Below, piece by piece: positions 1-64,000 of a stretch of DNA of 64,000 nt; within the stretch, counting starts at the first letter, position 1, and every line of letters begins with the position of its first letter. The notes beneath the pieces were generated by a model. The model had not been told where the DNA came from and did not search any database. It was given only the letters and a program-made list of their open reading frames with translations. Position numbers and translations under genes: made by a program. The stretch comes from Bilabrum cf. latius (Eukaryota): assembly GCA_965178125.1 (NCBI GenBank), contig OZ237771.1, positions 248,001-312,000 of the forward strand, in the 5' to 3' direction.

Positions 1-3000
1 CCTCGTCGCCGTGTGCTTCAATCGCTGCCAGCAGCACATCCGGCGAGCTCATGCTGTTCAGCAAAGGTGCACCACCATGCAATGCACCCGTCGAGGAGAG
101 ATCTCTGGGAGCCAGATGTGACCTGCCCGTCGATGAGGATGCGTTCGCGCCCGGTCTAGCTGCTCCTGATTTAGATGGCGAAGAGAGCCGGCCGGATGCA
201 TTCCAGACTATGGCGTTCACGCTGCTTGGGCTGCCCATGGTGGAACCGCGCCGGCGCCGCGCAATACCAGGCGAGCCACCTAGTTCCGCAAGGGGAGATT
301 GCACCTACCCGACTGGAGCGGTCATGCGGCGGGTTCCGCGGGGACCAGCGAACGTTCCCTGTCGGACACGCCCCCACGGGCTTGTGATCGCAGGAAGTTG
401 CATGCTGGTGGTATCCCGTGCACCGCCGTGCAGTGCATCAGGCTTCGGTAACGTGCCATCGCTTCCGTTGCCATCCGAGCCGCTGCCTCCGGAAACGCCT
501 GGGGAATCCCGCGTAGTCCCCGATACGGTGTCAGCGCCAGCCCTAGCTAGAGGTGCTACCGGCCGGGACAGCAGCTGCTGGGTGATGTCAGCTTGCTCCG
601 CGGAAGGGGGAATCCTGCTCATGCTCATGGCCCTGCGAGACAGCATTCCGACCCGCACGATTCCGGACCTGGACGCCGGCGACCACAGCGAAGGGGACCC
701 ATCAACGGGTATTGAACCCCGGAGGCCCGGAGAACCAGGATGCAAAACGGACTGGGGTCGGGATGCGTCTAGCTGCAGCGCAGGCGTCGAGCCAGCACGC
801 AGAAATGGCGAATCCACCCGTGGAGTTCGCACTATCGCAGCCTGGTTCGGCGTGGTCTCGCCCGCGCTGCTCCCGCTCCCAGGGCCACTATCCCTGGAAA
901 GAGCTGGTGCAAGTGCACCAGTGACTCGATCGAATTTCGAGGCATGCGCAAAAGCAATGGGAGTCGCAGCATCGCTGCCATCGGTGGTGCTTGAAGCGTC
1001 GGAGACCGAGTCCAGAGCTGCTTGTTTCTCTTCATCATCATTGTTCCCGTTAATTGGTATGGTCTTTCCCTGCTCCCTCCCTTGTCGTCCTGCATTAAAG
1101 CGACTCACGTGACCCTCTGGAGAACTGGGCTCGCCGCTCCCTGATTTGGCGTCATCACTGCCTGCACTTGCACTTGCACTTGCACTTGCATTCAATTGGG
1201 CTATCCCTCGGCGGCCGTGCGTCAATGATCCCGAAGCTGGTATCCTGCCCTTGCCTTGCTGATGCCTGTTGCTGGCGTGCCTAGTAGGACTCAGCCCGTG
1301 GCGTTCGCTGCTGCCGGCTTCTTGGTGCCTGAGTGCCTGCCTTCTATTACCCTTCCCGCTACCTCCGCTGCGAGTAATCATCCCAGCACCACTGGTGGCC
1401 TGTCGGTCCCGTCCAGGGTAAGGGGAAGGCTCGGAGGAGGACTCGGAGTCGGAAAGCGAGCCGTCGGTGTCGTCTGGTTCTCTGGCGTACAGAGGGGTTG
1501 GGGGTGCACCGCCATGCATTGCACCCCGTCCCTGCGAGTTGGCTCGTCGGGAGATGCCGCGGCTATGGCCACCCTAGTTCCTCATCGTGCCCTTGCCCTT
1601 GCCCCTGCCTTCGTCCCTGCCCCTGCCCCTGCCCCTGCTGCTTCTGCTTCTGCGTGTCTTCGATGCCCACACGTCCGCATCTAGCCCTCTCTTCAGATCC
1701 ACAGGCAGCGGCCTGGATGATAGGTGGTGAAGGGAGGAATACAGCCCAGGGCTCGTGTGGAAGTTGCCGGTGTGCGGGTTATGGCGGATGGCTCTCGCGC
1801 GCCAGTACTCCACCGAGCTCATCACCTAGCCGCGGAAGAACCGCCAGTGCGCAGAACCGTCCGGTGGGGCGTGGTGAAAGGTGCCGATCAGTCCGTTGCG
1901 GCAATTGAGAAACTGCGATGGTGGGCAAAGCGGGAGGTGGGCAAGCCGACAGGAGTGGCGCATTGGGAATCCATAGATGTGCTCCACTATGGGAAGATGC
2001 GATGGGGTATCCGTTGGTCAAACAACCCGCAAGGCAGGACGTATAATAAGTGGACCTACATGACAATGCAGCGAGCGGATGGGATATGCATCACGAAAGC
2101 AGTGCACTGTACTGCGCTGCAACCGACTCACCCCGTATACTCCCTCTCCTAGGATGCTGTCCGGCCCCCTTTCTTGTCTGTGCTGGGGCTTTCTTGCCTG
2201 TGCGGTGGGATTGGGGGCAGATTCTGAGGCCGTGCTGTGGTCGGCGTGATCGCTCACAACACCGGTTGCACTCGTCACACCAGTGTCGGCCAGGTCCCAG
2301 GTCGACACCTTGAACGTGCTGTGGCCAGGGCTCGCAGCTCTAGTGTGACGAGTGCTGCTGTCGGCAGTACTGGAGGAGGGCGCAGGCGCTGACGATGCTT
2401 TCATCAGCGAGGCCGGGCCAGCGCCAGGGGCGGGGAACAAACCGGAACTGCCTCCGGTCGACGCCATGTGCTGGTGCTGCACAACTGAAGGAGTGGAGCG
2501 GGCCGCCGTCCCACGTGCTGACTCGGTGAAGTCGTCGTTCTTGACCAAACGTGCCTGCCGGAGCAGAGCTGAAGATGCTCTTGAATCCCCGCCCTATCCC
2601 CCAAACGATGACCGCCCACTCGTCACACCGGGAGAGGCATCCTGCCCGTCGCCGAGGAGGACAAGGGGCGTGTCGGCTGGAGCCGCGGGGGAATCTCCGC
2701 GCATGCTCATCGCGCTCCCAGCCATCGAGGAGGCTCGTGCGGAACCGGCGCCGCCGTCGTCATCATAGGCCCCGTGCTGCATGCAGAAGCCCATCAGAAG
2801 AGACGGTGGTTTCGGCCGTTCGGCTGGCTCGGTCAAGGCCTACTGTTGCGCTACGGACGTTGCAGGCAGATTTCCAATCGGTGCACTAATTTGCAGATCC
2901 TACTGTTTGGTTATTTGATCTATTTGAGGCTATTTCGCATTGCTGCTGGCACTGAGTGGTTGGGAAGCTTCGTCACGTTGCCTCTGCTCGGCGGGTCGTT

Positions 3001-3436
3001 CTGCCGGTTCAATCCACTCGTTTCCATCACCGGGCTCAGCACTTGCTTTTTCATTGCACGGATAATCGTTGGCCTGAACCTGGTCGCTGTTCGGAGCATT
3101 TTGGAACATGGTGGGTGCTAGAACGGCCGATGGTTCTGCCGGACCAGACACTCCGCCGAAGAAATCAAAGCTGGGTTTCATTGCTACAATCGTAGTGCTC
3201 GCAGATGCATGCTTTAATCTGGTCTCTTCTGGCGCAGAGGTAGCAGGACTGGGCCCGAGCGTACCAGGCTGTGGCCTACCTGATATTGCATCCTACAGGT
3301 TGCTCGGTTCTTCGGACTGAGCAGGCTCCTCCGCTTTGGGCGACCCTGAAAACCAAGTAGTTGGTTTAAATGCAGGTATGTCGGATTTCTTGTCGCCGAG
3401 GCCAAGCGCTTGGGGCGAAACAAAACCATCTGACAT
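1..3436 (-). CDS. Low-complexity Ser/Gly/Pro-rich protein of unknown function; 3' end outside the window; one intron; TAG read as Gln
   Basis: ATG at 3436 (MSDGFVSPQ). ORF fragments 2930-3181, 2594-2836, 2018-2548, 1574-1825 and 305-1519 share one frame. They are separated only by TAG once intron 2131-1913 is removed. Confidence 0.6.
1913..2131 (-). other. Predicted phase-0 GT-AG intron (219 bp)
   Basis: Donor GGG|GTGAGT, acceptor CATCGCAG|TTT. Both sites are conserved in the duplicate at ~9.9-10.1 kb. Splicing removes the only in-frame TGA (2018-2020). Confidence 0.55.
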
Positions 3437-3996
3437 GACAGGTCTCTTATCGCCGCGTGTCCAGCAGCCTGAAGGCCTACAGATGTTTGCACCAGGGCTG
3501 TCTAGCTTTGAGTTAGACCACCATCCTTGGAATGCTGACTTGGCTGAAAACTCTTGTACTCGTGGATGTTAAAATCGAAATGAGACCTGGATGATTGGCG
3601 CCGCGCATAGTCTACAGAAAGTTCCGCAGTTGCACGGGTGAAGATCCAAGGATGGTACGATAGTAGCCCGCCCTCACCCGCGTCACGTAGTACTCTACTG
3701 AGTTCGCGAAACATTGCGTTGCTATCCTTGTCGCTCCAGAGTGGGCAAGTCGCTCGGATTCTAGGAGATGGCCCATCGTGTCTGTGGATGACGAGTGACC
3801 CGGATCAGGGACCAGATCCTCCGACCAATGCGGATGAGGATGTTGGGAGGTAACAATTAGACTTGAGCGACAATCGAAGGTGCTCCCTGACAGGTACCCA
3901 AGCTGGGCCCCTGCCCACACGGCACGGCACCCCACGAATATCTGCCAGGGTTCTGCCCTAGCAGTAGACTAGTCCTGGTCGTCATGGATGGTGCTA

Positions 3997-4922: not shown

Positions 4923-5478
4923 ACCGAGTTTCTCTCTAGCCCAGTCCATAGCATCTCCCCCTCATGCCACACCCAGTGCACCGAGTGCCTCTCTCGCCCA
5001 GTCCAAAGCATCTCCCCCTCATGACACATCCAGTGCACCGAGTGCCTCTCTCGCCCAGTCCGAAGCATCTCCCCCTCATGCCACACCCAGTGCACCGAGT
5101 GCCTCTCTCGCCCAGTCCGAAGCATCTCCCCCCTCATGCCACACCCAGTCCACCGAGTGCCTCTCTCGCCCAGTCCGAAGCATCTCCCCCTCATGCCACA
5201 CCTAGTGCACCGAGTGCCTCTCTCGCCCAATCCAAAGCATCTCCCCCCTCATGCCACACCCAGTGCACCGAGTGCCTCTCTCGCCCAGTCCGAAGCATGT
5301 CCCCCTCATGCCATACCCAGGGCACCGAGTGCCCTTCTCGCCCAGTCCGAAGCATATCCCCCCTCATGCCACACCCAGTGCACCGAGTGCTTCTCTCGCC
5401 CAGTCCGAAGCATCTCCCCCCTCATGCCACACCCAGTGCACCGAGTGCCTCTCTCGCCCAGTCCGAAGCATGTCCCCT
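4923..5478. repeat. 57/58-bp tandem repeat, ~9.5 copies, made of the last codons and TGA stop of the adjacent kinase-ARM gene
   Basis: Unit starts at 4941, 4998, 5055, 5112, 5170, 5227, 5285, 5342, 5400 and 5458. On the minus strand it reads ASDWAREALGALGVA-TGA plus a G-run of variable length. Confidence 0.93.
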
Positions 5479-7644
5479 ACCAGATTCCCTCAGCTGCCTC
5501 AGTGGGTCAACAGCGCCTGCATCCACCACGGCCTGCTTCAGGCCCTCTGATCCAAAGGCGACATTCATAAGCGCCCCCGCCGCCTTCTCAGCCTCTTTGC
5601 CCTTGCTCGATCCCAGCAGGCCCACCAGCCCAGGCAGTGCACCTGCATCCACCACGGCCTGCTTCAGGCCCTCTGATCCAAAGGCGACATTCATAAGCGC
5701 CCCCGCCGCCTTCTCAGCTTCCTTGCCCTTGCTCGATCCCAGCAGGCCCACCAGCCCGGGCAGTGCACCAGCATCCACCACGGCCTGCTCTTGACCCTGC
5801 GATGCCACGGCGATGTTCCGAAGCGCCCCCGCCGCCTTCTCAGCTTCCTTGCCCTTGCTGGATCCCAGCAGGCCCACCAGCCCAGGCAGTACACCAGCCT
5901 CTACAAAGGCATCCCTGGCCCGACTGTTGAGAAAGCAAGCCTGCCAAACGAGGAAGGCCCCCATTTCTGCTTCCATATTACCATCGACTCCCAGGCTCTT
6001 CACGATCCTTTCCAGCTCACTGCTGTTCGATAGCACGTGATCTGCTATGTCAGCTCTGACGTCTTCAAATAGTAGCCGGGCATGCAAACTGAAATCATCT
6101 GGATGATCAATGCCCGAGTCCATCCGTAACTGCCAAAGCACCCTGTATACACCATCCCAGTCACCCCTTGATTTAAGCCCATCCGCCAGAGACTTCAGCC
6201 TTATAACTGTTGATTCGCACTCAGGCCCACCGGTTGCCAATGCTTGCAGATACTTGCTGATATCATATAAACACGGTCCAGTTGCCCCTGAATGTCCACC
6301 AGATCGCATCACATTCACCGCCTCGTGCACTCCCATCCTATCCCCAGGATCAATGCACAGCAAATCTTGAACCAATGAAGCGTACCATTTCGGCCGCTTT
6401 GACAGTATATCGAAATCAGTCAACGGTGCATCGCAGGCATGCAGGGCAGCTGCAAGCTCCCCAGGGCTGGGCTTGCTCCCATCCTACAACTCGCAAGGAT
6501 ACTAGTCCCCGAACGGGTGCTGCCCTCCCGTGGCCAGCTCGTGCAACAGCACGCCCAGCTCCCATGATGCCTGCTTACCGAATGGCACCACAGCTGAATC
6601 GTCACCTGCCGCTCCCTTGTTCCACCCGTCCAGCACCTCAGGGGCCAAGTGGGCCCGAATACCGCCCAGCCCGTCACCACCATCCTTCAGGTATCGGTAC
6701 GTGACCTGATCTAACGCCTCCTCTGCTTGTGAAGTGCGAGATGCACTAGCTGAAGCAGCAGCAGCAGCAGCAGCAGGGTCAGCAGCAGAGACTGCAGCGC
6801 CATCCGCATGCACCCGCAGTGAGCACCCGAGATCGATCAGCACCGCACGACCCACCCCCTCCGGACCCCCCTTCGAGTCCCACATCACGTTGTCCAGCTT
6901 CAGGTCACGGTGCACCACCCCGTGCTGGAGCAAGTGATGCACGCCCTCCGCGATGTCGCTGGACAGCTGCACAAGTACATCGTCAGGCATGGATCCCGGC
7001 TCATCGTCCTCCAGGTATTCCAGATGGTCGCACATGCGCCTCTGCAGCAGCTCCACGCCCACCATCTGGGCCTTGCGGGGACGCAGAGGGGCGGCACCAG
7101 CGGACGGCATGCCTTCTCCCGCAAAATCGCTGTAGTCGCCCATATCAAGGCACACTAAACTAGGATCAGGCAGCATTTCCACCATCCACACCGGAGGCTT
7201 GCCCACGCATTCGAACAGCACGCGAGCAAGGTTACGGTGCTCGGGCAGGCGAGCGAGCACATCGAACTCTTTCTGGGAATCGATGGTTTCGAGCTTTGAT
7301 GTGGACAGTCCCCAGTTGAATACCGTCTTCACTGCAATATAATCAGGTGCTGGAGCAGCGCCTTCAGCCTCTGCATCTGTGCTGCTTGCGGGAATTGCCA
7401 CGCGAAAGACGGCCCCAAATCCGCCGCTTCCGAGCAAGACTCTTCCTCTCGAAGGCTTGATGCAACGAGCCAGAAGGGGTTTCGCAAATTTACGTCGCTA
7501 CACCATGGTCCCCGATTTCGTCATACGGTAGACCTCGATCACGCTGACGGGAAGGTCGGGAGGTGGGATGACCGCACAACCCGTATCAGGTACTGGTGGG
7601 AGATCCCTCGCACCGGCACCACTGCATGGTCCAGAAGCTGCCAT
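5422..7644 (-). CDS. PINK1-like Ser/Thr kinase with 3 armadillo repeats (~740 aa, TAG=Gln)
   Basis: Motifs GSGGFG, AVK, HRDLKLDN, DLG and APE, followed by 42-aa GALPGLVGLLGS repeats. Three in-frame TAGs (7498, 6502, 6484); ends at TGA. The start is inferred from the paralogue. Confidence 0.85.
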
Positions 7645-7852
7645 ATTGAAATGTACTGTTTCTGTATGTGCTCCAGAATGCTTCTTGAGCCCGTCCAGAA
7701 AGCAGGATACTTGAGAAGCCACTGCATTCTCGATGTGGATCGTGGTCTGATTTTGAACAAAATTGCACGTCACAAACATGAGCTGACGACGCGGAGTGGT
7801 GATGTTTAACCGATTTGCAACGAAAGGACGGAATGCTTTCGGACCAGGAGCC

Positions 7853-8593
7853 ATGGTGACTACAGCGGCAATGCAGGAGTACGGTCATCAAGGAAGACGA
7901 ATCCTGCGCATTCGAGCTGGACAATATCCACAACAGGGAACGCCCAACCTCCAGGTAATGGGCACCGCGGTAGAGCAGATGGAGCGAGCTGAGCATGAGC
8001 GTCACGCCGAAACGAAGCCGTGGACACCTGATGCCGGGGATCAGAATAGAGGGAGGTCGCCCGCCTCTCTTCGGAAGGCATGGGCGAAGACAGCTCTCGC
8101 CCTGGATCCCTGGGACGAGAAGCTGGAGCACACCAACAGGGCCAAACCAATCGTCGAAGGCGCGCTCATTCGGATAGAGCGCACGATTGCACGGTCCTCG
8201 GAACGTACAGCTGTCAAGGTGCTGGCTAACCGAGTGGTGCAGGTGCTCCGAAACCAGCTGCGCCAGCAGGAGCAGCTGACATGCAGGCAGTGGATGCGTG
8301 GTGATGCGGCGGCTGCCTTAGCCGCCACGGCCACGCAGGAGCTGATAGCGGCAACCAATGCGAACGCCCGACTACAGCGACGGATTTTCAAGCCCCACGG
8401 CTTGCTAAAGGATATAGAGAGGCAATGGGCCAAAGGCATGAGCGCGTGCATGCTCGCCTCTCTGAAGGATCGTGAGACGCAGAGACGGTCATGGAGGAGG
8501 AAATGGTGGGTCTCGACCGGGGACCCTGATGTGGGACTGGACCGCGCCTTGTGCCGGGCACACGCTCCGCACCTGTACGCTTTCTCCTTGTGA
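7853..8593 (+). CDS. Hypothetical ORF (~246 aa), possibly a degenerate mobile-element remnant
   Basis: Open from ATG 7853 to TGA 8593 with helical, charged composition. No recognisable motif. Confidence 0.25.
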   Translation: MVTTAAMQEYGHQGRRILRIRAGQYPQQGTPNLQVMGTAVEQMERAEHERHAETKPWTPDAGDQNRGRSPASLRKAWAKTALALDPWDEKLEHTNRAKPIVEGALIRIERTIARSSERTAVKVLANRVVQVLRNQLRQQEQLTCRQWMRGDAAAALAATATQELIAATNANARLQRRIFKPHGLLKDIERQWAKGMSACMLASLKDRETQRRSWRRKWWVSTGDPDVGLDRALCRAHAPHLYAFSL

Positions 8594-20118: not shown

Positions 20119-20297
20119 TTTGATACACAATGAATCTATGTGTACTCCAGGGCACTTCTTGAGCCCGTCCAGAAAGATGGACCCGTGAAAAGCAACTGCA
20201 TTCCAGACGTGGATCGTGGTCTGATTTATTACAACATGCACGTCACAAATAAGAGCTGCCAAAATTTGCTACAATTGAGCAGTGATACTTGAGCGGT

Positions 20298-50243: not shown

Positions 50244-50453
50244 GAGGGCCCGTCGGATGGAGGGGCCATCTGCGCCCAATGTCCATGTTTATATTGTTCG
50301 GTGCTCTCGATACTGTATCGTTAAGTCTCGCCCTATGCGTGAGGGCTTTGTCCCGAAGATGTTTGTGTTGGTTGCAACCGTGCGTTCTTGGACCAAATAT
50401 CAAGATGAAGATACCGGTTGATGGACTGGCGAAGCATTTCGACTGAATTCTAG

Positions 50454-51845
50454 ATGGCAGGTGTGGCTGGCTCTGGGTCTTCCACTGATTTGGTTACGTA
50501 TGTAGATCTCAAAGACAAAACCGAAGGTCTCGAGCGTCACTTTGAGGCGCCCACCGAAGTATCACTTAGTACTGCAGATCCTTCTTCGGTTGTTCTCGGT
50601 GACATTGCCTGGAGCACGATCAAAACTCAGGTTGTCGTATTCAGCACTTTGGATCATGTGGTCGGCATGCCTGCAGGATTTGCGCTTGCGCTAGTCTACC
50701 AGTTTCACATCAGCGAGCTGGAGATTATTTGCGTGGAGACTGGTGCCGTGGCAGCCTCTGTTGTTGTCGATATGGAGTAGCGATTATTTTGGGACAAGTT
50801 CTTTATTCCATCTTCAGGCAAATTCTACCACATGAACGGAGACATTCTCTAGATTGATCTGCATGGTATGTCTGCTGAGAGTGTGGTGAAAGGCAGTCCC
50901 ATTTCCAGAGGTGTCGGCATTCTCCACCCTGGTGTCGGGCTATATGTAAGCCCTCGTACGCCACTTTAGATTTTCATGATATCACCTGTGTCTGGAAAGG
51001 AGGTCTGCTTCGACCCGTCCGAGATTGAAGCGGTCGTCCCGGATGAGGACGAGCGCACAGCTGGCAAGCCGCTGGTCACCAAAGTGAAAAAGACGTACAC
51101 TGAGTCGCTGATTGGGGTCTCTGTTTTTAAGGAGCAGATTGTCCATTGCGGGCGGTACAGTCATTTCACGGTACTGCAGGACGGAAAAGTGGCAGGATGG
51201 GCACCGCACGGGGAGTGCTTCGGGGGCTTCACAGTGTGGGACCCTTCCACCAACAAGACCAGGTTCGTCGCTGACAACTTCATTCTGGGGGGAAATCCGT
51301 TGGTGGACGACTGGGGGGAATCAGTAGAAGATGAAGTCGTTACTGAAGGCACCCTGCAGCAGGTGGGCCCTTCGCTCGTGGCTCTGTTCCTATAGCGGCA
51401 CAAATTCGGTATCGTCATCATCGACGTGGACCGAATGGAGCAGGTGGGGCTGGCGGCGGAAGGGGAGCGCATCCAGCTTGCCGAGGTGGTGCAAGTGGAA
51501 GGTCAAGATCACTGCATGCTGATTGCCGGGACTGTTGCGCCCGGGTCTGTGCAGGTGTGGAAGCCTGTGAGCGCGAAAGAGGGCTGGTACAAGAAGCAGC
51601 AGGAGGTGGAGATCGGTGAGAAGGTGAAGGGTATCACAGCTCTGCAGGTGGTCCCAGGGGGCAAGCTGCTGGCGGCAGGGCGAATGCATGGCTTCGGACA
51701 TCGGCCGATCAAGGAGCACCCTATCGTGTGTTTGCAACTGGATGGAGTCGATGTGTCACTCCCTGAAGGTACCGGCAAGGAGGATCGTTCCACTGGTGAC
51801 AGTAAGCTGCTGGCCAAGCTGAAGGACGGAGGGTATATGAAGTAA
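50454..51845 (+). CDS. Array gene P copy 3 (apparently identical to copy 2)
   Basis: Offset +4368 from copy 2, with the same translation. Confidence 0.78.
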
Positions 51846-52127
51846 CTGGTAGAGGCTATCCTGAATCGGCATTCGTCTGTGTACCAGTGTGCATGACCAC
51901 ACTGCTAAGGTTTAGCTAATAAGCAAGATTCGTTTTTCATTTTTTATGGCTATCGGGAATCCGATTCGGGATACGTGTGTCACACTAGATTTCTATCGAG
52001 GTTCTTGAGATGAGCAAGGCGCATGGCAGCATATAAGTTATAACCTTATAAAGCAAAATCCAAATGGATCGATCGCCCAAAACAAGCTGACGTCAAGCTG
52101 GCTGTGCAGAGACCCAGTATCAACTAC

Positions 52128-54611: not shown

Positions 54612-54822
54612 GAGGGCCCGTCGGATGGAGGGGCCGTCTTTGTGGTATTATTACGTGTTGATCGTCCGATGCTCTCGATAATTCTGCATCGGTAAGTTTC
54701 GCGGAAGGCATGATGGCTCTCCCCAAAGTCTCGACGCTGGTTGCAACCGGTCGGTCCGGGACCAATTGTCAAGATGAAGATACCGGTTGATGGACTGGCG
54801 AAGCATTCTATTGAATTTTCAA

Positions 54823-56214
54823 ATGGCAGGTGCGGCTGGCTCTGAGCCTTCCAATGATTTGGTTAAATATTCAGATCTCGAAGAGAAAACCGAAGGTCTT
54901 GAGCGTCACTTTGAAGCGCCCACCGAAATATCACTTAGTACTGCAGATCCTTCTTCTGTTGTACTCGGTGACGTAGTGTGGAGCACGATCAAAACTCAGG
55001 TTGTCGTATTCAGCACTTTGGATCATGTGGTCGGCATGCCTGCAGGATTTGCGCTTGCGCTAGTGTACCAGTTTCACATCAGCGAGCTGGAGATTATTTG
55101 CGTGGAGACTGGTGCCGTGGCAGCGTCCATTCTATATGATGAAGATCAAGGAATATTTTGGGACAAGTTCTTGATTCCACCTTCAGGCAAATTCTACCAC
55201 ATGAACGGAGACATTCTTAAGATCGATCTGCACGCCATGGCGGCTTCATGCGTGGTAAGTGGCCGCGAACTATCGAGAAGTGTTGGCATTCTCCACCATG
55301 ATATCGGGCTCTTTGTTAGCCCTCTTACACCGTTTCAGATATACATGATATCACCTGTGTCTGGGAAAGAGGTCTGCTTCGAAGCATCCGAGATTGAGGC
55401 AGTCGTCCCGGATGAGGATGAGCGCACAGCTGGCAAACCAATGGTCACGAGAGTGAAAAAGACGTACACTGAGTCGCTGCTACATGCATCCGTATTCAAG
55501 GAGCAGATTGTGGGGTGCGGGAGGTACAGCCAATTTACGGTGCTGCAAGACGGAAGGGTGGCCGCGTGGGCTCCGCACGGGGAGTGCTTCGGGGGCTTCA
55601 CAGTGTGGGACCCTTCCACCAACAAGACCAGGTTCGTCGCTGACAACTTCATTCTGGAGGGAAATCCAAGAGTTGATGGCTGGTCAAAGACTGTCGAAGA
55701 TGATATCACATCGAAAGGCACTGTTCAACAGGTGGGCCCGTCCCTCGTGGCTCTGTTCCTGCAGCGACACAAATTCGGTATCGTCATCATTGATGTGGAC
55801 CGAATGGAGCAGGTGGGGCTGGCGGCGGAAGGGGAGCGCATCCAGCTTGCCGAGGCGGTGCAAGTGGAAGGTCAAGATCACTGTATGCTGATTGCTGGGA
55901 CTGTTGCGCCTGGTACTGTGCAGGTGTGGAAGCCCGTGAGCGCGAAAGAGGGCTGGTACAAGAAGCAGCAGGAGGTGGAAATCGGTGAGAAGGTAAAGGG
56001 TATCACAGCTCTTGAGGTGGTCCCAGGGGGCAAGCTGCTGGCAGCAGGGCGAGTGGATGGCTTCGGGCATCGGCCGATCAAGGAGCATCCGATCGTGTGT
56101 TTGCAACTGAATGGGGTTGATGTGTCACTCCCTGAGGGTACCGGCAAGGAGGATCGTTCCACTGGTGACAGTAAGCTGCTGGCCAAGCTTAAAGAGGGAG
56201 GGTACATGAAGTAA
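54823..56214 (+). CDS. Array gene P copy 4
   Basis: Intact ORF with no TAG; TAA stop. Confidence 0.8.
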   Translation: MAGAAGSEPSNDLVKYSDLEEKTEGLERHFEAPTEISLSTADPSSVVLGDVVWSTIKTQVVVFSTLDHVVGMPAGFALALVYQFHISELEIICVETGAVAASILYDEDQGIFWDKFLIPPSGKFYHMNGDILKIDLHAMAASCVVSGRELSRSVGILHHDIGLFVSPLTPFQIYMISPVSGKEVCFEASEIEAVVPDEDERTAGKPMVTRVKKTYTESLLHASVFKEQIVGCGRYSQFTVLQDGRVAAWAPHGECFGGFTVWDPSTNKTRFVADNFILEGNPRVDGWSKTVEDDITSKGTVQQVGPSLVALFLQRHKFGIVIIDVDRMEQVGLAAEGERIQLAEAVQVEGQDHCMLIAGTVAPGTVQVWKPVSAKEGWYKKQQEVEIGEKVKGITALEVVPGGKLLAAGRVDGFGHRPIKEHPIVCLQLNGVDVSLPEGTGKEDRSTGDSKLLAKLKEGGYMK

Positions 56215-56456
56215 CTGTTGGCGGCTACCCTGAACATGAATCCGCATTCGTCTGTGTACCAGTGTCCATGACCACATTGCTAAGGTTTAGCTAATAAGCA
56301 AGGTTCGTTTTGTAGATCGGGATACGTGTGTCACACTGAATTCTTGTAGAGATTCTTGAGACGAGCAAGGCGCACGGCAGCAAATAGCAAAATCGATCTT
56401 CCAAAACAAGTTGTTGTCAAGCTGGCTGTGTAGGCACTGCAGAGACACTGTATGAA

Positions 56457-58937
56457 TCATTGGCAAGTGCACGTTCCCCCCGCCACAGTGGCACTAGCCA
56501 ACTGCGACCTGCTGAAGTACTCCCAGTCGTGAGCTGGCACCCCGAGCATGAAGGACCGGCGGGAAGCGTCGTACCTGGCCTACTCGGCTGCATCCAAGTT
56601 CTTGTCGTGTGACCACGTTGAAGTACCTGCCACTCCAGCGCCCGTGTCCTTACCTTCATCAGCAGCTTTCACGAATGCAACTCGCTTCGCCTCAAGTGCA
56701 TCGTTTGCTTCCTTGAGAGCATCTTCCCTTGAAGGCAGGTAGGCGTCCAGCCAGTGTGTTTCGCCGGATTTTGCCATCACCTGCAGGCACATGCGCTGGG
56801 TGACATGGGTGTGCCTGCTGTGGAGAGCGTGCGAAATCGGGTAGGGCTCCCTGAGCGACTTCAGGTGGAACTCATATCCCAAGTCCACTCCCAGCACAGC
56901 TCGCATTGCGTAGGTAGTGCTGCTCCTGGTCTCGGTCATGGACTCAAGGTGCGGGTAGATGCTGCTGCCCTTGGAGCCGCTGTTGCAGGCAGATGGGAAT
57001 TGCATGAGCAATGCAATGGGCTGGAAGTCCACGGGCTTAGCATACAGTGTCCAGGTGCCCGGCACAGTGGGTCGCTTCCAGACAGGACTGAGTTCAACAG
57101 GCGGCTCATCACCGACGGCACCGGTACTCTCTGCTCGAAACACGCTCACGGGCGACATGCGGTCAACGGAGACCTCGAGAATATGTTCTCCCCGGGCATC
57201 CTCAAGACTGCTCTTGATCTGGACGGAGTCCCCGTCCTAATCTCTAAATTGCCACCACAGCGGTACTCCAGTGTGGGATGTAGTAGCTGGATCATGCAGC
57301 TGGCACCTGGATTCACCGCGCCGCATGCCCTCAAGACTGTAGGCATCCAGCTTGAAGGCATTGCCCAGATCCCGGTGATCGATCCTTCGGTACTGCACTG
57401 GGATGCCGCTGTCCAAGTCGTGACGAGTGACAGCCTCTGCTTCAGGTACAGATGCACTATCGGACTCGCCATCCGGCGTTGCTTCGGTTTGAGAGTACGC
57501 CTCTGCCTTCGAGTGCAGCACATCACCTACCACCTCCCGGTACAGCGACCGCTGCTTGCACTCCTCACTGCCCATCGCATGGACTTTGGACCAGTCCAAC
57601 TTCATGCTCACCGCGTCAGGGATGGTGATTTCCTCAGGCTCCTAGAAACCTGCCTCCAGTTGCGAGCAGAACCCAGTCACCACGCAGATGCGACGAACCG
57701 GGCACAGCTTCCTCGGCGAACGCTCCCCAGCACCGCCACACGACGGTAGCCAGTGGCCACAGGCATCGGAAGCCCCACCCACCGGCATGTGCTTCTTCGG
57801 GCAGTACCCCTGGCTGCCCACGTCCAGCATGGCATGCAGCGCCACCCAGCTGTAGGCCTCCATGGGCAGCATGGCGCACGTGCGGTCCAGCCTCTCGTCT
57901 GCATCCGTCGGTGGCTTGTCTCCGAACATGGCCTCGAAGCTGCTGCACACGGACTCGGAAGGAGGATCGAATCCCGTCTCTCCTTTCTCCGCGCAGGCGA
58001 GACGAGTGGGGGCATCTCCTGGATCAGTTGGCGGTGCACCTGCAAGAGTCTGCCTGTGCTTTGGTCCCCCGGTGAGCACATAGTCGGCCACCACGTTCTG
58101 GCACACTCGACAGCGATCTGTGACGTGATGGTCGTCCCTGTTCTTCTCAACGGCATCGCTGTCAGCTGTGGCGGGACTCACCGTGGTTGCGTCCTCGTTG
58201 GCGATCTTGACCTCCTCGTGATCGATCAGCCGCTTTCGGTTGAAGGCTTCGTAGTCTGCATCGAGCTGCTCGCAGTCTTGGATCGGCAGGGACCGCACGT
58301 CGTCCCATCCGTTGGTTTGGAGGCTGTTGTGCTTCTCGATGAACAGGTTCAGGGTCTCGCACGTATCCTTCGGCAGACCAGCCCTCCCATTCTCCAGCAT
58401 CGACAGCACGGTCTACGCCGCGTGAGACACAGCGACGATGTCGGAGGCCTTGCTGATCCGCTCTTCGGTCGCGGCCCAGAGCAGGAACTTCCTGGCTTTG
58501 GCGGCCTGGAACACCTGAGACATCGACATCTCTTCATCGACAGAATTGCCACTCGCGTCCACCAGGAACCCATTCCCGCTGACGAAGCACCTCTTCGCGA
58601 TCGCCTCCATGTCTTCAGGATTCTGCTTAGTCTTGCCGGCGCTGATGGCCACCTGATGGCATGCCTTGCGATCAAGCACGATGCTGTACGAATGGCGCGG
58701 CGACACCTGCATGGCGATGGGTGCCGGCAGCTCGCTCACCCTCCTTGCCCACTGGTCGATGAAGCTGCCCTGCGTGTCCTCGTCCTGCGTGGCGCTGACA
58801 AGCCCTGGCTCACCCCCCTGCACCACGATCTTGACGTCTCTCACAAGAGAGGCAGTGCGGCTGGATTTGGAGTTGGACCACGAGGCCGAGAGCTCCACGG
58901 CTTGCTTGCCACCGCTGGCAGCGAGGTTGCCCAGCAT
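56457..58937 (-). CDS. Array gene M copy D (A-type C-terminal half)
   Basis: TAG at 58413, 57642, 57237 and 56580; TGA stop. Confidence 0.75.
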
Positions 58938-59149
58938 GAGGGCCCGTCGGATGGAGGGGCCGTCTTTGTGGTATTATTACGTGTTGATCGTCCGATGCTC
59001 TCGATGATTCTGCATCGGTAAGTTTCGCGGAAGGCATGATGGCTCTCCCCAAAGTCTCGACGCTGGTTGCAACCGGTCGGTCCGGGACCAATTGTCAAGA
59101 TGAAGATATCGGCTGATGGACTGGCGAAGCATTCCCATTGAATTTTCAA

Positions 59150-60541
59150 ATGGCAGGTGTGGCTGGCTCTGAGCCTTCCAATGATTTGGTTAAATATTCA
59201 GATCTCAAAGAGAAAACCGAAGGTCTCGAGCGTCACTTTGAAGCGCCCACCGAAATATCACTTAGTACTGCAGATCCTTCTTCTGTTGTACTCGGTGATG
59301 TAGTCTGGAGCACGATCAAAACTCAGATTGTAGTATTCAGCACATTGGATCATGTGGCCGGCATGCCTGCAGGATTTGCGCTTGCGCTAGTCTACCAGTT
59401 TCACATCAGCGAGCTGGAGATTATTTGCGTGGAGACTGGTGCCGTGGCAGCGTCAATTGTTGTAGACAAGGAGCAGGCATTGTATTGGGACAAGTTCTTG
59501 ATTCCATCTTCAGGCAAATTCTATCACTTAAATCGCGACCTGCTCTAGATTGATCTGCATGGTATGTCTGCTGAGAGTGTGGTGAAAGGCCGTCCTATTT
59601 CCAGAGGTGTTGGGATTCTTCACCCTGGTGTCGGGCTATATGTAAGCCCTCGTACGCCACTTTAGATTTTCATGATATCACCTGTGTCTGGGAAAGAAGT
59701 CTGCTTCGAAGCATCCGAGATTGAAGCAGTCGTCCCGGATGAGGATGAGCGCACAGCTGGCAAGCCAATGGTCACCAAAGTGAAAAAGACGTACACTGAA
59801 TCACTGATTGGAGTCTCTGTATTTGAGGAACAGATCGTACATTGCGGGCGGTACAACCATTTCACGGTGCTGCAGGACGGAAGGGTGGCAGCGTGGGCGG
59901 ACTACGGGGAGTGCTTCGGGGGCTTCACAGTGTGGGACCCTTCCACCAACAAGACCAGGTTCGTCGCTGACAACTTCATTCTGGAGGGAAATCCAAGAGT
60001 TGAGGGCGCGGAACGCATAGTTCCCGATGAAGGTGGATCGAGGGGTACCCTGCAGCAGGTGGGCCCTTCGCTAGTGGCTATGTTCCTGCAGCGACACAAA
60101 TTCGGTATCGTCATCATTGACGTGGACCGAATGGAGCAGGTGGGGCTGGCGGCGGAAGGGGAGCGCCTCCAGCTTGCCGAGGCGGTGCAAGTGGAAGGTC
60201 AAGATCACTGCATGCTGATTGCCGGGACTGTTGCGCCTGGTACTGTGCAGGTGTGGAAGCCCGTGAGCGCGAAAGAGGGCTGGTACAAGAAGCAGTAGGA
60301 AGTGGAGATCGGTGAGAAGGTGAAGGGTATCACAGCTCTTGAGGTGGTCCCAGGGGGCAAGCTGCTGGCGGCAGGGCGAATGCATGGCTTCGACGAGCGG
60401 CCGATCAAGGAGCATCCGATTGTGTGTTTGCAACTTGATGGAGTCGATTTGTCACTCCCTGAAGGTACCGGCAAGGAGGATCGTTCCACTGGTGACAGTA
60501 AGCTGCTGGCAAAACTGAAGGAGGGAGGGTACATGAAGTAA
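59150..60541 (+). CDS. Array gene P copy 5 (3 in-frame TAG)
   Basis: TAG at 59546, 59663 and 60296; TAA stop. Confidence 0.8.
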
Positions 60542-60776
60542 CTGGTAGAGTCCATCCGAAATCTGCATTCTTCTGTGTACCAGTGTCCATGACCACATTG
60601 CTAAGGTTTAGCTAATAAGCAAGGTTTGTTTTCTAGATCTAAATGCGTGTATCACTTTACATTCTTGTAGAGGTTCTTGAGACGAGCAAAGCGTGTGAAA
60701 GCATATAGCAAAATCGATCGTCCAAAACAAGCACACGTCCAGCTTGCTGTGCAGAGACCCAGTATCAATCCATAGT

Positions 60777-63260
60777 TCAAAGGGTACAAGTTCCCCCCGT
60801 CACAGATGCACTAGACACTTGCGACCTGCTGAAGTACTCCCAGTCGTGAGCTGGCACCCCAAGCATGAAGGACCGGCGGGATGCGTCGTACCTGGCCTGC
60901 TCCGCTGCATCCAAGTTCTTGTCGTGTGACCACGTTGAAGTACCTGCGAATCCAGCGCCCGTGTCCTTGCCTTCGTCAGCAGCTTTCACGAATGCCCCTT
61001 GCTTCGCCTCAAATGCATCGTTTGCTTCCTTGAGAGCATCTTCGCTTGAAGGCAGGTAGGCGTCCAGCCAGTGTGTTTCGCCGGATTTTGCCATCACCTG
61101 CAGGCACATGCGCTGGGTGACATGCGTGTGCCTGCTATGGAGAGCGCGCGGAATCGGGTAGGGCTCTCTGAGCGATTTCAGGTGGAACTCATATCCCAAG
61201 TCCACTCCCAGCACAGCTCGCATTGCGTGGCGAATACTGCTCCTGGTCTCGGTCATGGACTCGAGGTGCGGGTAGATGCTGCTGCCCTTGGAGCCGCTGT
61301 TACAAGCAGATGGAAACTGAACCAGCAAGGGAATCGGCTAGTACTTCTTAGGTTTAGCATACAGCGTCCAGGTGCCCGGCACAGTGGGTCGCTTCCAGAC
61401 AGGACTGAGTTCAACAGGCGGCTCATTACCGACGGCACCGGTGCTCTCAGCTCGAAACACGCTCATGGGCGACATGCGGTCAGCGGAGAATTCCAAAGCA
61501 AAACTGCCCCTGGCGTTCAGCTAAACGGTAAGCATTGGAATATCTTCGCCCTCTGAGTCCATATCTGGGATTGGCCACCATAGTGGCACACCTGTCTGGT
61601 GCTCACTGCTTGGATCATGCAGCTGGCACCTGGATTCACCGCGCCGCATGCCCTCAAGACTGTAGGCATCCAGCTTGAAGGTATTGCCCAGGTCCCGGTG
61701 ATCGATCCTGCGGTACTGCACTGGGATGCCGCTGTCCATGTCGTGACGAGTATCAGCCTCTGCTTCAGGTGAAGATGCACTGTCGGACTTGCCATCCGGC
61801 GTTGCTTCGGTTTGAGAGTACGCCTCCGCCTTCGAGTGCAGCACATCACCTACCACCTCCCGGTACAGCGACCGCTGCTTGCACTCGTCACTGCCCATCG
61901 CATGGACTTTGGACCAGTCCAACTTCATGCTCACCGCGTCAGGGATGGTGATTTCCTCAGGCTCCTAGAAACCTGCCTCCAGTTGCGAGCAGAACCCAGT
62001 CACCACGCAGATGCGACGAACCGGGCACAGCTTCCTCGGCGAACGCTCCCCAGCACCGCCACACGTCGGGAGCCAGTGGCCACAGGCATCGGAAGCACCA
62101 CCTTCCGGCATGTGCTTCTTCGGGCAGTACCCCTGGCTGCCCACGTCCAGCATGGCATGCAGCGCCACCCAGCTGTAGGCCTCCATGGGCAGCATGGCGC
62201 ACGTGCGGTCCAGCCTCTCGTCTGCATCCGTCGGTGGCTTGTCTCCGAACATGGCCTCGAAGCTGCTGCACACGGACTCGGAAGGAGGATCGAATCCCGT
62301 CTCTCCTTTCTCCGCGCAGGCGAGACGAGTGGGAGCATCTCCTGGATCAGCTGGCGGTGCACCTGCAAGAGTCTGCCTGTGCTTTGGTCCCCCTGTGAGC
62401 ACATAGTCGGCCACCACGTTCTGGCACACTCGACAGCGATCTGTGACGTGATGGTCGTCCCTGTTCTTCTCAACGGCATCGCTGTCAGCTGTGGCGGGAC
62501 TCACCGTGGTTGCGTCCTCGTTGGCGATCTTGACCTCCTCGTGATCGATCAGCCGCTTTCGGTTGAAGGCTTCGTAGTCTGCATCGAGCTGCTCGCAGTC
62601 TTGGATCGGCAGGGACCGCACGTCGTCCCATCCGTTGGCCGGGAGGCTGTTGTGCTTCTCGATGAACAGCTTCAGGGTCTCGCACGTGTCCTTCGGCAGA
62701 CCAGCCCTCCCATTCTCCAGCATCGACAGCACGGTCTACGCCGCGTGAGACACAGCGACGATGTCGGAGGCCTTGCTGATCCGCTCTTCGGTCGCGGCCC
62801 AGAGCAGGAACTTCCTGGCTTTGGCGGCCTGGAACACCTGAGACATCGTCATCTCTTCATCGACGGACTTGCCACTCGGGTCCACTAGGAACCCATTCCC
62901 GCTGACGAAGCACCTCTTCGCGATCGCCTCCATGTCTTCAGGATCTTGATCAGTTTTGCCGGCGCTGATGGCCACCTGATGGCATGCCTTGCGATCCAGC
63001 ACGATGCTGTACGAATGGCGCGGCGACACCTGCATGGCGATGGGTGCCGGCAGCTCGCTCACCCTCCTTGCCCACTGGTCGATGAAGCTGCTCTGCGTGT
63101 CCTCGTCCTGCGTGGCGCTGACCAGCCCTGGCTCGCCCCCCTGCACCACGATCTTGACGTCTCTCACAAGAGAGGCAGTGCGGCTGGATTTGGAGTTGGA
63201 CCACGAGGCCGAGAGCTCCACGGCTTGCTTGCCACCGCTGGCAGCGAGGTTACCCAGCAT
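60777..63260 (-). CDS. Array gene M copy E (B-type variable block)
   Basis: TAG at 62736, 61965, 61521 and ~61338. Has CAG where copies A-D have TAG (AAE-Q-ARY). Confidence 0.75.
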
Positions 63261-63472
63261 GAGGGCCCGTCGGATGGAGGGGCCGTCTTTGTGGTATTAT
63301 TACGTGTTGATCGTCCGATGCTCTCGATGATTCTGCATCGGTAAGTTTCGCGGAAGGCATGATGGCTCTCCCCAAAGTCTCGACGCTGGTTGCAACCGGT
63401 CGGTCCGGGACCAATTGTCAAGATGAAGATATCGGCTGATGGACTGGCGAAGCATTTCTATTGAATTTTCAA

Positions 63473-64000
63473 ATGGCAGGTGCGGCTGGCTCTGAGCCTT
63501 CCAATGATTTGGTTAAATATTCAGATCTCGAAGAGAAAACCGAAGGTCTCGAGCGTCACTTTGAAGCGCCCACCGAAATATCACTTAGTACTGCAGATCC
63601 TTCTTCTGTTGTACTCGGTGACGTAGTGTGGAGCACGATCAAAACTCAGGTTGTCGTATTCAGCACTTTGGATCATGTGGTCGGCATGCCTGCAGGATTT
63701 GCGCTTGCGCTAGTCTACCAGTTTCACATCAGCGAGCTGGAGATTATTTGCGTGGAGACTGGTGCCGTGGCAGCGTCCATTCTATATGATGAAGATCAAG
63801 GAATATTTTGGGACAAGTTCTTGATTCCACCTTCAGGCAAATTCTACCACATGAACGGAGACATTCTTAAGATCGATCTGCACGCCATGGCGGCTTCATG
63901 CGTGGTAAGTGGCCGCGAACTATCGAGAAGTGTTGGCATTCTCCACCATGATATCGGGCTCTTTGTTAGCCCTCTTACACCGTTTCAGATATACATGATA
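63473..64000 (+). CDS. Array gene P copy 6, partial (near-identical to copy 4)
   Basis: ATG GCA GGT at 63473; open to the window end. Confidence 0.75.
   Translation, partial: MAGAAGSEPSNDLVKYSDLEEKTEGLERHFEAPTEISLSTADPSSVVLGDVVWSTIKTQVVVFSTLDHVVGMPAGFALALVYQFHISELEIICVETGAVAASILYDEDQGIFWDKFLIPPSGKFYHMNGDILKIDLHAMAASCVVSGRELSRSVGILHHDIGLFVSPLTPFQIYMI

What the first reader, a model, noticed from the sequence alone, without database searches (positions are those of the whole stretch)
1..64000. Variant nuclear genetic code: TAG = Gln while TAA and TGA remain stops
Seen: about 70 in-frame TAGs (hand count) interrupt otherwise frameshift-free genes across the window. TAG aligns with CAG in a paralogue at 47025 (FL*RH vs FLQRH), 60296 (KKQ*E vs KKQQE), 46599 (PL*I vs PFQI), 46410 (E* vs EQ), 48321 (Y*PI vs FQPI), 43518 (AAE*ARY vs AAEQARY in copy E), 7498 (V*RR vs VQRR), 6484 (L*DG vs IQDG) and 2840 (QQ*A vs QQQA). 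It also aligns between FG-GAP repeats (SH*KI at 14126 vs SYQKI). Genes end in TGA (most) or TAA (gene P), and no internal TAA/TGA was found in the reconstructed exons. Established: most nuclear reassignments change UAA and UAG together; UAG-only reassignment is rare (e.g. UAG=Gln in the fornicate Iotanema spirale). Inference: this organism has decoupled UAG from UAA, which implies a tRNA-Gln(CUA) and an altered eRF1; it may be a further independent origin.
Basis: partly seen in the sequence, partly recalled or inferred. Interest (0 to 1): 0.95.

Follow-up and report, generated by a model that had tools for sequence, protein, structure and literature searches.

The report
Nuclear code with TAG read as glutamine
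This GC-rich eukaryotic DNA comes from an organism that appears to read the stop codon TAG as glutamine while still ending its genes at TGA and TAA, a rare but already described kind of genetic-code variant.

Summary
In 13,659 codons of high-confidence coding sequence there are 56 in-frame TAG, 0 TAA and 0 TGA. Out of frame, all three are common.

- **TAG is translated.** TAG-bearing genes are transcribed and spliced, and TAG is unchanged in the RNA contigs. Purifying selection continues downstream of shared TAGs, with dN/dS 0.23-0.43.
- **Glutamine is the best-fitting residue.** Gln is among the partner residues in 10 of 17 TAG columns in paralogue or internal-repeat alignments. In one deep FG-GAP column, with the TAG masked as X, 757 of 1,150 database repeat units have Q.
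- **TGA and TAA end genes.** TGA ends the seven gene families C, E, F, G, H, I, J, the L family, and the open frame of B. TAA ends all 5 complete copies of gene K, after which the coding signal stops.
- **The usual TAR=Gln code is unlikely.** With CAA:CAG at 114:381, that code predicts about 17 in-frame TAA. None is seen.

Three things could not be tested. No tRNA lies in the window, no whole genome is held, and the taxon is unknown. The same code is published for Iotanema spirale, Protocruzia tuzeti and some phyllopharyngean ciliates. I therefore rate this a new member of a known kind, possibly a further independent origin.

The parts
20298..25146 (-). Gene G, PNGase-like (weak Rad4/transglutaminase and PAW matches), 1,483 codons. 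Exons about 25146-24221, 24098-23876 and 23600-20298. 10 in-frame TAG, with the first base on the minus strand at 25095, 24843, 24582, 23267, 22046, 21944, 21692, 21389, 21140, 20579. Ends in TGA at 20298-20300.
   Evidence: A spliced RNA contig of 4,489 nt matches with 0 other letters. The frame was rebuilt. The 92 codons after the last TAG score as coding, 0.14 per codon against -0.10 to -0.17 for known 3'UTRs.
25501..31847 (-). Gene H, ankyrin repeats followed by a long low-complexity protein, 2,018 codons. Exons 31847-31627 and 31336-25501. 5 in-frame TAG at 30858, 29934, 28614, 28290, 27366. Ends in TGA at 25501-25503 with a 97-nt 3'UTR.
   Evidence: An RNA contig of 6,269 nt matches with 0 other letters. 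Frame, ankyrin match. The TAGs at 31392 and 31527 fall in the intron 31337-31626.
32227..34656 (-). Gene I, 809 codons, unspliced. 1 in-frame TAG at 33426. Ends in TGA at 32227-32229.
   Evidence: RNA contig 32013-35303 matches with 0 other letters. Frame.
35465..40853 (+). Gene J, alpha2delta-like (two folate-receptor domains, VWA, Cache), 1,765 codons. Intron at about 35671-35761. 1 in-frame TAG at 35964-35966. Ends in TGA at 40851-40853.
   Evidence: The database protein P0122 (100% identical, 1,628 aa) begins just after this TAG, as a standard-code gene call would.
5422..7854 (-). Gene C, protein kinase plus armadillo repeats, 810 codons. TAG at 7500, 6504, 6486. Ends in TGA.
   Evidence: Pfam. 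Aligned to paralogue F: the three TAGs sit opposite CAG, TCG and CAG. dN/dS between C and F is 0.39.
16504..20118 (-). Gene F, kinase plus about 14 armadillo repeats, 1,204 codons. TAG at 17940, 17184, 16755, 16629. Ends in TGA.
   Evidence: In the repeats, TAG sits where other repeats have E, K or D, and the paralogue C has GAG at 16629.
12718..14628 (-). Gene E, FG-GAP repeats, Ser/Thr/Pro-rich stalk and a membrane span, 636 codons. 8 TAG at 14475, 14454, 14298, 14127, 13404, 13389, 13302, 12762. Ends in TGA.
   Evidence: The TAG at 14127 falls in a column that is Q in 757 of 1,150 homologous repeat units.
41761..64000 (.). Tandem array, period about 4.32-4.37 kb, of a convergent gene pair.
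- K (+ strand, 463 codons, ends in TAA): 41761-43152, 46086-47477, 50454-51845, 54823-56214, 59150-60541, and 63440 onward (cut by the window end).
- L (- strand, about 825 codons, ends in TGA): 43395-45875, 47760-50243, 52128-54602, 56457-58928, 60777-63251.
- TAG count: K1 0, K2 4, K3 4, K4 0, K5 3; L1-L5 have 4-5 each. Two L columns are TAG in all 5 copies.
   Evidence: dN/dS is 0.17-0.27 for K and 0.25-0.44 for L. An exact 4,478-bp duplicate makes K2=K3 and L2=L3.
2018..3568 (-). Open frame B, with its paralogue D at 9217-11514. Low-complexity protein, exon limits not settled. 5 TAG in B at 3295, 2932, 2902, 2842, 2596; 4 are shared with D, and the fifth (2842) is CAG in D.
   Evidence: No RNA was laid here, so this part is lower confidence and was left out of the 13,659-codon count.

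Best explanation
The window is nuclear DNA of a compact, GC-rich (58-60%) eukaryote with few introns. Its translation system reads UAG as a sense codon, most probably glutamine. UGA is the main terminator and UAA also terminates.

Shown here:
- TAG sits in frame in almost every gene, about 4 per 1,000 codons and about 10% of Gln codons.
- TAG is kept in spliced RNA.
- It is followed by sequence that is still under purifying selection.
- It aligns mainly with CAG/CAA or with Q.

Inferred, not shown:
- Decoding is by a tRNA-Gln with anticodon CUA, one base change away from tRNA-Gln(CUG).
- The release factor eRF1 has lost recognition of UAG but keeps UAA and UGA. This is what was proposed for Iotanema spirale.
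For: 1. **Frame statistics.** In 13,659 codons the reading frame holds 56 TAG, 0 TAA and 0 TGA. Frames +1 and +2 hold TAG 92 and 59, TAA 32 and 57, TGA 271 and 395.
2. **Expression.** Three runs gave contigs with canonical GT..AG joints that are absent from the DNA run. These contigs cover genes G, H, I and the 5' part of J with 0 other letters. All 17 coding TAGs of these genes are therefore present in RNA.
3. **Selection.**
   - Variable columns by codon position are K 62/48/158, L 61/46/103 and C/F 96/73/162.
   - dN/dS is 0.17-0.44.
   - It is the same for copies with TAG (K2, K5) and without (K1, K4).
   - It stays at 0.23-0.43 downstream of shared TAGs.
4. **Residue identity.**
   - Of 17 TAG columns with a sense partner, 10 include Gln. 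The others are E in 2 (one of them shared with Q), K 1, S 2, L 1, V 1 and A 1.
   - Summed BLOSUM62 scores are Q 46.5, E 21.5 and K 11.
   - With the TAG masked as X, the FG-GAP column is Q in 757 of 1,150 repeat units from 120 database proteins. R is 117, A 34, S 32, T 31 and K 29.
   - No TAG aligns with TAC or TAT.
5. **Terminators.**
   - TGA ends C, E, F, G, H, I, J, L and the frame of B. RNA contigs stop 5 to 214 nt after the TGA in G, H and I.
   - TAA ends 5 of 5 complete K copies.
   - Before that TAA, substitutions by codon position are 3/1/15. After it they are 3/4/4, with indels of 6, 24, 27, 9 and 4-5 nt, and the next in-frame TGA is 17-19 codons on.
6. **Against TAR=Gln.** CAA:CAG is 114:381, so 56 TAG predict about 17 TAA. 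None is seen. The Poisson probability is about 5e-8 by my arithmetic, and less extreme once paralogues are discounted.
Against: - Only one gene family (K) ends in TAA, so 'TAA is a stop' rests on that family plus the absence of in-frame TAA.
- TAG to CAG is a single transition. Paralogue columns would therefore favour CAG whatever TAG means.
- Only one deep-homology column was informative. The second FG-GAP TAG falls in a variable column (T 140, P 55, S 36 of 460).
- In the armadillo repeats of F, TAG sits where other repeats have E, D or K. In the distant K homologue P0125, the TAG columns hold N, T, D/L and H rather than Q.
- The RNA status of the three runs is the tool's guess, and one is flagged 'probably DNA'. 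I infer RNA from the splice joints.
- Whether UAG also terminates some genes cannot be decided from about 10 gene families.
- No tRNA, eRF1 or peptide evidence exists here.
Confidence: 0.8

Rival explanations
1. The organism uses the ordinary ciliate or diplomonad type code in which both TAA and TAG mean Gln. TAA is simply rare in this GC-rich window.
For: This is the commonest nuclar variant (PMC5304391 abstract and passages). GC-rich codon usage lowers A-ending codons. Only one gene family shows TAA as a terminator.
Against: - 0 in-frame TAA in 13,659 codons, although CAA is 23% of CAA+CAG (114 of 495) and TAA occurs 32 and 57 times in the other two frames.
- No TAA aligns with CAA or CAG in any paralogue.
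- The coding signal ends at the K TAA in 5 of 5 copies.
Confidence: 0.06
2. TAG is a sense codon for another residue, most plausibly glutamate. Lysine, serine and leucine are also possible, as in other published UAG reassignments.
For: TAG aligns with GAG at K187 (copy K1) and F1225, and with AAG at K148, TCG/TCA at C461 and L582, and CTT at L595. In the armadillo repeats of F the TAG positions are mostly E, D or K in other repeats. UAG=Glu, Leu and Ser are all published (PMC11687900 passages).
Against: Gln is a partner in 10 of 17 columns, and the BLOSUM sum for Q is twice that for E. K124 shows TAG, CAG and CAA in one column. The deep FG-GAP column is 66% Q, and E is not among its six commonest residues.
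Confidence: 0.08
3. UAG is ambiguous. It is read as Gln inside genes but also ends some genes, depending on context, as in Condylostoma, karyorelicts or Blastocrithidia for other codons.
For: This cannot be excluded from about 10 gene families. Gene E has a TAG only 13 codons before its TGA.
Against: Sense TAGs are spread evenly along coding sequences, at relative positions 0.04-0.98. The base after TAG resembles that after CAG. The tail of G after its last TAG still scores as coding. No gene here needs TAG as its end.
Confidence: 0.08
4. The TAGs are nonsense mutations in pseudogenes (for example repeat-induced C-to-T mutation of duplicated genes), sequencing errors, or sites corrected by RNA editing.
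For: Many TAG-bearing genes lie in tandem or segmental duplications, and CAG to TAG is a C-to-T change.
Against: - Single-copy genes G, H, I and J carry 17 TAGs.
- There are no TAA or TGA and no frameshifts.
- dN/dS is 0.17-0.44 and unchanged downstream of TAG.
- Two TAG columns are conserved in all 5 L copies.
- Contigs from three further runs in two other studies show the same letters, so there is no error and no editing.
Confidence: 0.01

Closest known systems
Iotanema spirale (Fornicata) nuclear code: UAG=Gln, UAA and UGA stops (Panek et al. 2017, PMC5304391; passages read)
   Same: The same three codon meanings. In-frame UAG only, with no in-frame UAA or UGA. The proposed route is a tRNA-Gln(CUG) to CUA change plus a change in eRF1.
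   Different: Iotanema mostly ends genes in UAA (passage), whereas here TGA dominates and TAA ends 1 of about 10 families. This window is 58-60% GC. I found no GC figure for Iotanema in the main text (0 matches for 'GC content' and 'GC-rich'), and its supplements were not seen. The taxon here is unknown, and neither tRNA nor eRF1 has been seen.
Ciliates with UAG=Gln only: Protocruzia tuzeti and two phyllopharyngean lineages (McGowan et al. 2024, PMC11687900; two passages read)
   Same: UAG is reassigned to Gln without UAA.
   Different: From my own knowledge, ciliate macronuclear genomes are AT-rich. This locus is GC-rich, lies on a contig of at least 21 kb (record 1), has GT..AG introns of 91-290 nt and carries 4.3-kb tandem gene arrays. 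Membership of the ciliates was not tested.
UAR=Gln codes (NCBI table 6: many ciliates, hexamitid diplomonads, some green algae)
   Same: UAG is read as Gln, and UGA is kept as a stop.
   Different: In-frame TAA is a defining feature of those codes. It is absent here (0 of 13,659 codons), and TAA ends gene K.
Other UAG-only reassignments: rhizarian exLh (Leu), Scotinosphaera (Ser), ciliate PL0344 (UAG=Glu, UAA=Lys)
   Same: UAG is uncoupled from UAA.
   Different: The residue differs. Leu, Ser and Glu are partners in only 1, 2 and 2 of the 17 columns here.

Membership tests
UAG=Gln, UAA/UGA=stop nuclear code (Iotanema type; 'table 15'-like) | In-frame UAG in expressed, selected coding sequences | tested here: met
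   56 in 13,659 codons. TAG is kept in spliced RNA contigs. dN/dS is 0.23-0.43 downstream of TAG.
UAG=Gln, UAA/UGA=stop nuclear code (Iotanema type; 'table 15'-like) | UAG aligns with Gln in homologues | tested here: met
   10 of 17 paralogue or repeat columns. Q in 757 of 1,150 in one deep column. A second deep column and the P0125 columns were uninformative.
UAG=Gln, UAA/UGA=stop nuclear code (Iotanema type; 'table 15'-like) | UAA is not used in frame and does terminate genes | tested here: met
   0 in-frame TAA. The K family ends at TAA in 5 of 5 copies and the coding signal is lost after it. This rests on a single family.
UAG=Gln, UAA/UGA=stop nuclear code (Iotanema type; 'table 15'-like) | UGA terminates genes | tested here: met
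   0 in-frame TGA against 271 and 395 out of frame. RNA contigs end 5-214 nt after the TGA of G, H and I.
UAG=Gln, UAA/UGA=stop nuclear code (Iotanema type; 'table 15'-like) | UAG never serves as the terminator | tested here: inconclusive
   No gene here needs it, but there are only about 10 gene families.
UAG=Gln, UAA/UGA=stop nuclear code (Iotanema type; 'table 15'-like) | A tRNA-Gln with anticodon CUA | not testable with these tools
   No tRNA and no Rfam family in the window. No genome is held.
UAG=Gln, UAA/UGA=stop nuclear code (Iotanema type; 'table 15'-like) | eRF1 domain 1 altered at UAG-reading positions, such as the GTS motif | not testable with these tools
   eRF1 is not in the window.
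UAR=Gln code (table 6) | In-frame UAA as well as UAG | tested here: not met
   0 TAA against about 17 expected from the CAA:CAG ratio.
Codes with all three stops ambiguous (Condylostoma, Blastocrithidia, Amoebophrya sp. ex K. veneficum) | In-frame UGA and UAA | tested here: not met
   0 of each in 13,659 codons. [quoted passage not shown]

The most novel reading that the evidence does not exclude
This is a lineage outside the ciliates and outside Iotanema that has independently uncoupled UAG from UAA. It is GC-rich and uses TGA as its main stop. It would be the first such case with a contiguous genome assembly and matching transcript data, so the tRNA-Gln(CUA) and the eRF1 changes could be read directly. 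A distant K homologue (P0125) ends one residue before a column where copy K5 has TAG. This hints that relatives may share the code.
Probability: 0.5. Interest if true: 0.72.

Novelty: new member of a known kind. Interest (0 to 1): 0.62.

Why it matters
UAA and UAG nearly always change meaning together, because a single eRF1 reads both and wobble links them. The papers read here name six lineages that break this link. A further case with genome-scale data would help in three ways.

- It would show whether the same eRF1 positions change each time, such as the GTS motif proposed for Iotanema.
- It would show whether a dedicated tRNA-Gln(CUA) is always present.
- It would show whether GC-rich genomes, where TGA is the main stop and TAG stops can be lost cheaply, favour this route.

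There is also a practical point. Standard-code gene callers cut this organism's proteins at TAG. One database entry for gene J starts right after the TAG.

Tried and rejected
- **Whole genome.** None is held for this window, so tRNA, eRF1, 18S and genome-wide codon inference were impossible.
- **RNA genes in the window.** ARAGORN found none and Rfam found none.
- **L family.** No database homologue by word search among 8,000 scored candidates. Pfam gave only a weak MACPF match, E 0.0077.
- **J protein.**
  - The search returned only its own truncated entry and one protein at 31% identity.
  - J's single TAG aligns with Ala in its second folate-receptor domain, which is uninformative.
- **K2 against 1.84 billion representatives.** 3 hits.
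  - P0124 is an 89-residue fragment with R at the K187 column.
  - P0125 is 26% identical by the search (30% in the alignment) and has N, T, D/L and H at the TAG columns. This gives no support for Q.
  - P0126 is marginal.
- **Taxon.**
  - The Atlas search with J gave only alpha2delta-like clusters, mostly from chordates, and no clue to the taxon.
  - The taxon stays unknown.
- **Sequencing runs.** No listed holder is on record as RNA. I laid three 'RNA?' runs and one DNA run.
- **Literature.**
  - Four searches found no paper on a GC-rich non-ciliate with UAG=Gln.
  - This covers only the held library.
  - Supplements of PMC5304391 and PMC11687900 (codon tables, eRF1 alignments, taxon lists) were not seen and could bear on whether this organism is already described.
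- **ORF lengthening as evidence.** Rejected as weak, because TGA-as-sense lengthens frames even more.
- **An apparent gene on the + strand at 43671-45956.**
  - It is 761 aa with no stop under the standard code.
  - I rejected it as the antisense of L1.
  - Only the minus-strand L frames pass the codon score (0.16-0.17 per codon), and the L paralogue substitutions peak at codon position 3 of that minus-strand frame.

Full report
**What the window is.** The 64 kb are 56-62% GC. They carry eukaryotic genes:
- two kinase plus armadillo-repeat genes (C, F);
- an FG-GAP membrane protein (E);
- a PNGase-like gene (G);
- an ankyrin-bearing 2,018-codon gene (H);
- an alpha2delta-like gene with folate-receptor, VWA and Cache domains (J);
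- a 4.3-kb tandem array of two orphan genes, K and L.

No whole genome is held. No tRNA or other Rfam family lies in the window.

**Checking the observation.**
- Reading TAG as sense fuses the open frames: the largest grow from 1,628, 776 and 761 to 2,022, 1,725 and 1,265 codons. I do not lean on this, because reading TGA as sense lengthens frames even more.
- The specific evidence is per frame. I defined 13,659 codons from RNA contigs, Pfam matches or paralogue selection, leaving out the exact duplicates K3 and L3 and the doubtful A, B and D. In that set the reading frame has 56 TAG, 0 TAA and 0 TGA. The two other frames have TAG 92 and 59, TAA 32 and 57, TGA 271 and 395.
- TAG is therefore tolerated in frame about as often as out of frame, while TAA and TGA are excluded.
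- Some TAGs in the raw open frames are not coding. These are the K 5' leader, two in the H intron, one 5' of the ATG of F, and several in A and the tail of D.

**Are the genes real and expressed?**
- One call of read laying put four public runs on 20200-36200.
- The DNA run X1 covers the stretch in one contig with no joints at the introns.
- Runs X5, X6 and X8 come from two other studies. The tool labels them 'RNA?' and flags one as 'probably DNA'.
- These three runs gave contigs that skip 23601-23875, 24099-24220 and 35671-35761. X5 also skips 31337-31626.
- All skipped stretches have GT..AG ends once the stated cut ambiguity is allowed for. The contigs stop at gene borders: 20293-25177, 25404-31962, 32013-35303, and 35420 onward. 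I take these contigs as transcripts.
- They match the window with 0 other letters. The 10, 5, 1 and 1 coding TAGs of G, H, I and J are therefore present in RNA, which rules out editing and assembly error.
- Rebuilt from these exons, the frames run 1,483, 2,018, 809 and 1,765 codons from the first ATG to a TGA, with no TAA or TGA inside.

**Is translation continuing through TAG?**
- Paralogue alignments show substitutions concentrated at codon position 3 of the TAG-containing frames: K 62/48/158, L 61/46/103, C/F 96/73/162.
- dN/dS is 0.17-0.27 for K, 0.25-0.44 for L and 0.39 for C/F.
- K copies with TAG (K2, K5) do not differ from copies without (K1, K4).
- Downstream of TAGs shared by two copies, dN/dS stays at 0.23-0.43.
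- Two L columns are TAG in all five copies.
- This rules out pseudogenes and repeat-induced mutation, as do the absence of TAA and TGA and the 17 TAGs in single-copy genes.

**Which residue?**
- Seventeen TAG columns have a sense partner in a paralogue or internal repeat.
- Gln is among the partners in 10: K124 (both CAG and CAA), K187, K329, K398, L656, L801, C129, C467, B243 and E174.
- The rest are E (K187 in part, F1225), K (K148), S (L582, C461), L (L595), V (E117) and A (J137).
- Summed BLOSUM62 scores give Q 46.5, E 21.5 and K 11.
- CAG is one transition from TAG, so this count is biased towards Q. I therefore ran a test that does not depend on near neighbours. I masked the TAGs of gene E as X, collected 120 FG-GAP proteins from the database and aligned 1,214 of their repeat domains to the masked query.
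  - The column of the TAG at 14125-14127 is Q in 757 of 1,150 residues, then R 117, A 34, S 32, T 31 and K 29.
  - The other FG-GAP TAG falls in a variable column and says nothing.
- A distant homologue of K (P0125) has N, T, D/L and H at the four TAG columns of K2 that it spans, which is also uninformative.
- In the armadillo repeats of F, the TAG positions are E, D or K in other repeats. That fits Q or E.
- Overall Gln is clearly the best reading and Glu is the runner-up.

**Are TAA and TGA still stops?**
- TGA ends C, E, F, G, H, I, J, L and the frame of B. The RNA contigs end 5, 97 and 214 nt after the TGA of G, H and I.
- Known 3'UTRs score as non-coding, at -0.10 to -0.17 per codon. The 92 codons after the last TAG of G score 0.14, like coding sequence.
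- TAA ends all five complete K copies at the same codon.
  - In the 150 nt before it, substitutions by codon position are 3/1/15.
  - In the 57 nt after it, they are 3/4/4.
  - Indels of 6, 24, 27, 9 and 4-5 nt appear.
  - An in-frame TGA follows after 17-19 codons.
- CAA makes up 114 of 495 CAA+CAG codons. If TAA were Gln in the same proportion, 56 TAG would predict about 17 TAA, and none is seen. No TAA aligns with CAA or CAG in any paralogue.
- The weak point is that only one gene family uses TAA. Whether TAG ever terminates cannot be settled from about ten families.
- Sense TAGs lie anywhere from 4% to 98% of coding length. They are followed by C 16, G 21, A 16 and T 3, much like CAG.

**Mechanism.**
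- Shown: UAG is decoded as sense at about 4 per 1,000 codons and about 10% of Gln codons.
- Inferred from established knowledge and from the proposal for Iotanema (PMC5304391 passages): a tRNA-Gln(CUA) arose by one anticodon change from tRNA-Gln(CUG), and eRF1 no longer recognises UAG.
- A variant without a dedicated tRNA is possible and untested. In it, near-cognate tRNA-Gln(CUG) would act together with a weakened eRF1.

**Comparison with what is known.**
- From the papers I read in passages, UAG=Gln with UAA kept as a stop is published for Iotanema spirale, Protocruzia tuzeti and two phyllopharyngean ciliate lineages.
- UAG alone is Leu in the rhizarian exLh and Ser in Scotinosphaera. UAG=Glu with UAA=Lys occurs in one ciliate (PMC11687900; PMC5304391).
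- Within the caviomonads the change is specific to Iotanema (PMC9161772 passages).
- Iotanema mostly ends genes in UAA, whereas here TGA dominates.
- Four searches of the held library found no report of a GC-rich non-ciliate with this code. Supplements were not seen, and subscription journals are not covered.
- The code itself is therefore known. The organism may be new to it. I could not place the taxon.

**Verdict.**
- My confidence is about 0.97 that TAG is sense, about 0.88 that it is Gln, and about 0.85 that TAA is not sense. The full statement gets about 0.8.
- It is a new member of a known kind. Interest is 0.62, which is high for specialists in genetic-code evolution but not unprecedented.

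Noticed in passing
45757-54602: An exact 4,478-bp stretch recurs at a shift of 4,368 bp (45757-50234 equals 50125-54602). Two units of the K-L array are therefore letter-for-letter identical. This could be a very recent duplication, gene conversion or an assembly effect.
   Followed up: partly
41716-64000: There are at least five and a half tandem units (period 4.32-4.37 kb) of a convergent pair of orphan genes, K and L. They share a spacer of about 210 nt on the divergent side and 235-282 nt on the convergent side. L has no database homologue, and K has only three weak or fragmentary ones.
   Followed up: partly
35964-40853: Database protein P0122 (1,628 aa, 100% identical) starts exactly after the in-frame TAG of gene J. 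A standard-code gene call on another public contig has therefore cut off the N-terminal 137 codons.
   Followed up: yes
60296 (K5) against protein P0125: The distant K homologue P0125 (347 aa) ends at '...GWYKLQ', one residue before the column where K5 has TAG. It may itself be cut at an in-frame stop, which hints at a relative with the same code.
   Followed up: no
3997-4558; 4923-5477; 16425-16559: A 51-bp tandem repeat of 11 copies at 97% identity lies at 3997-4558. A 57-bp repeat of 9.7 copies overlaps the 3' end of kinase gene C, and a shorter array of the same unit overlaps the 3' end of its paralogue F.
   Followed up: no
27676-28209: Summed contig depth jumps to 720-4,900 in all four runs, against about 20 elsewhere. 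Many short joints and loose ends occur at 27770-27824 and 28579-28599. This is a simple Gly/Ala-rich coding repeat of gene H that recurs across the genome.
   Followed up: no
1-3568 and 9217-11514; 5422-7884 and 16504-20301: This is a segmental duplication. A/B is paralogous to D, including apparently non-coding stretches, and kinase gene C is paralogous to F. F has 14 armadillo repeats where C has about 3.
   Followed up: partly
20293-20301: The RNA contig of gene G ends 5 nt after its TGA, and the open frame of the next gene F begins at once. Other spacers between transcripts are 50-230 nt, so the genome is very compact. Whether 20293 is a true poly(A) site is unknown, because contigs cannot show ends.
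   Followed up: no
43671-45956 (+), and the same in other units: A 761-codon frame without any standard stop runs antisense to gene L1. It looks like a gene under the standard code but fails the codon score and the substitution-phase test. It is a trap for standard-code annotation.
   Followed up: yes
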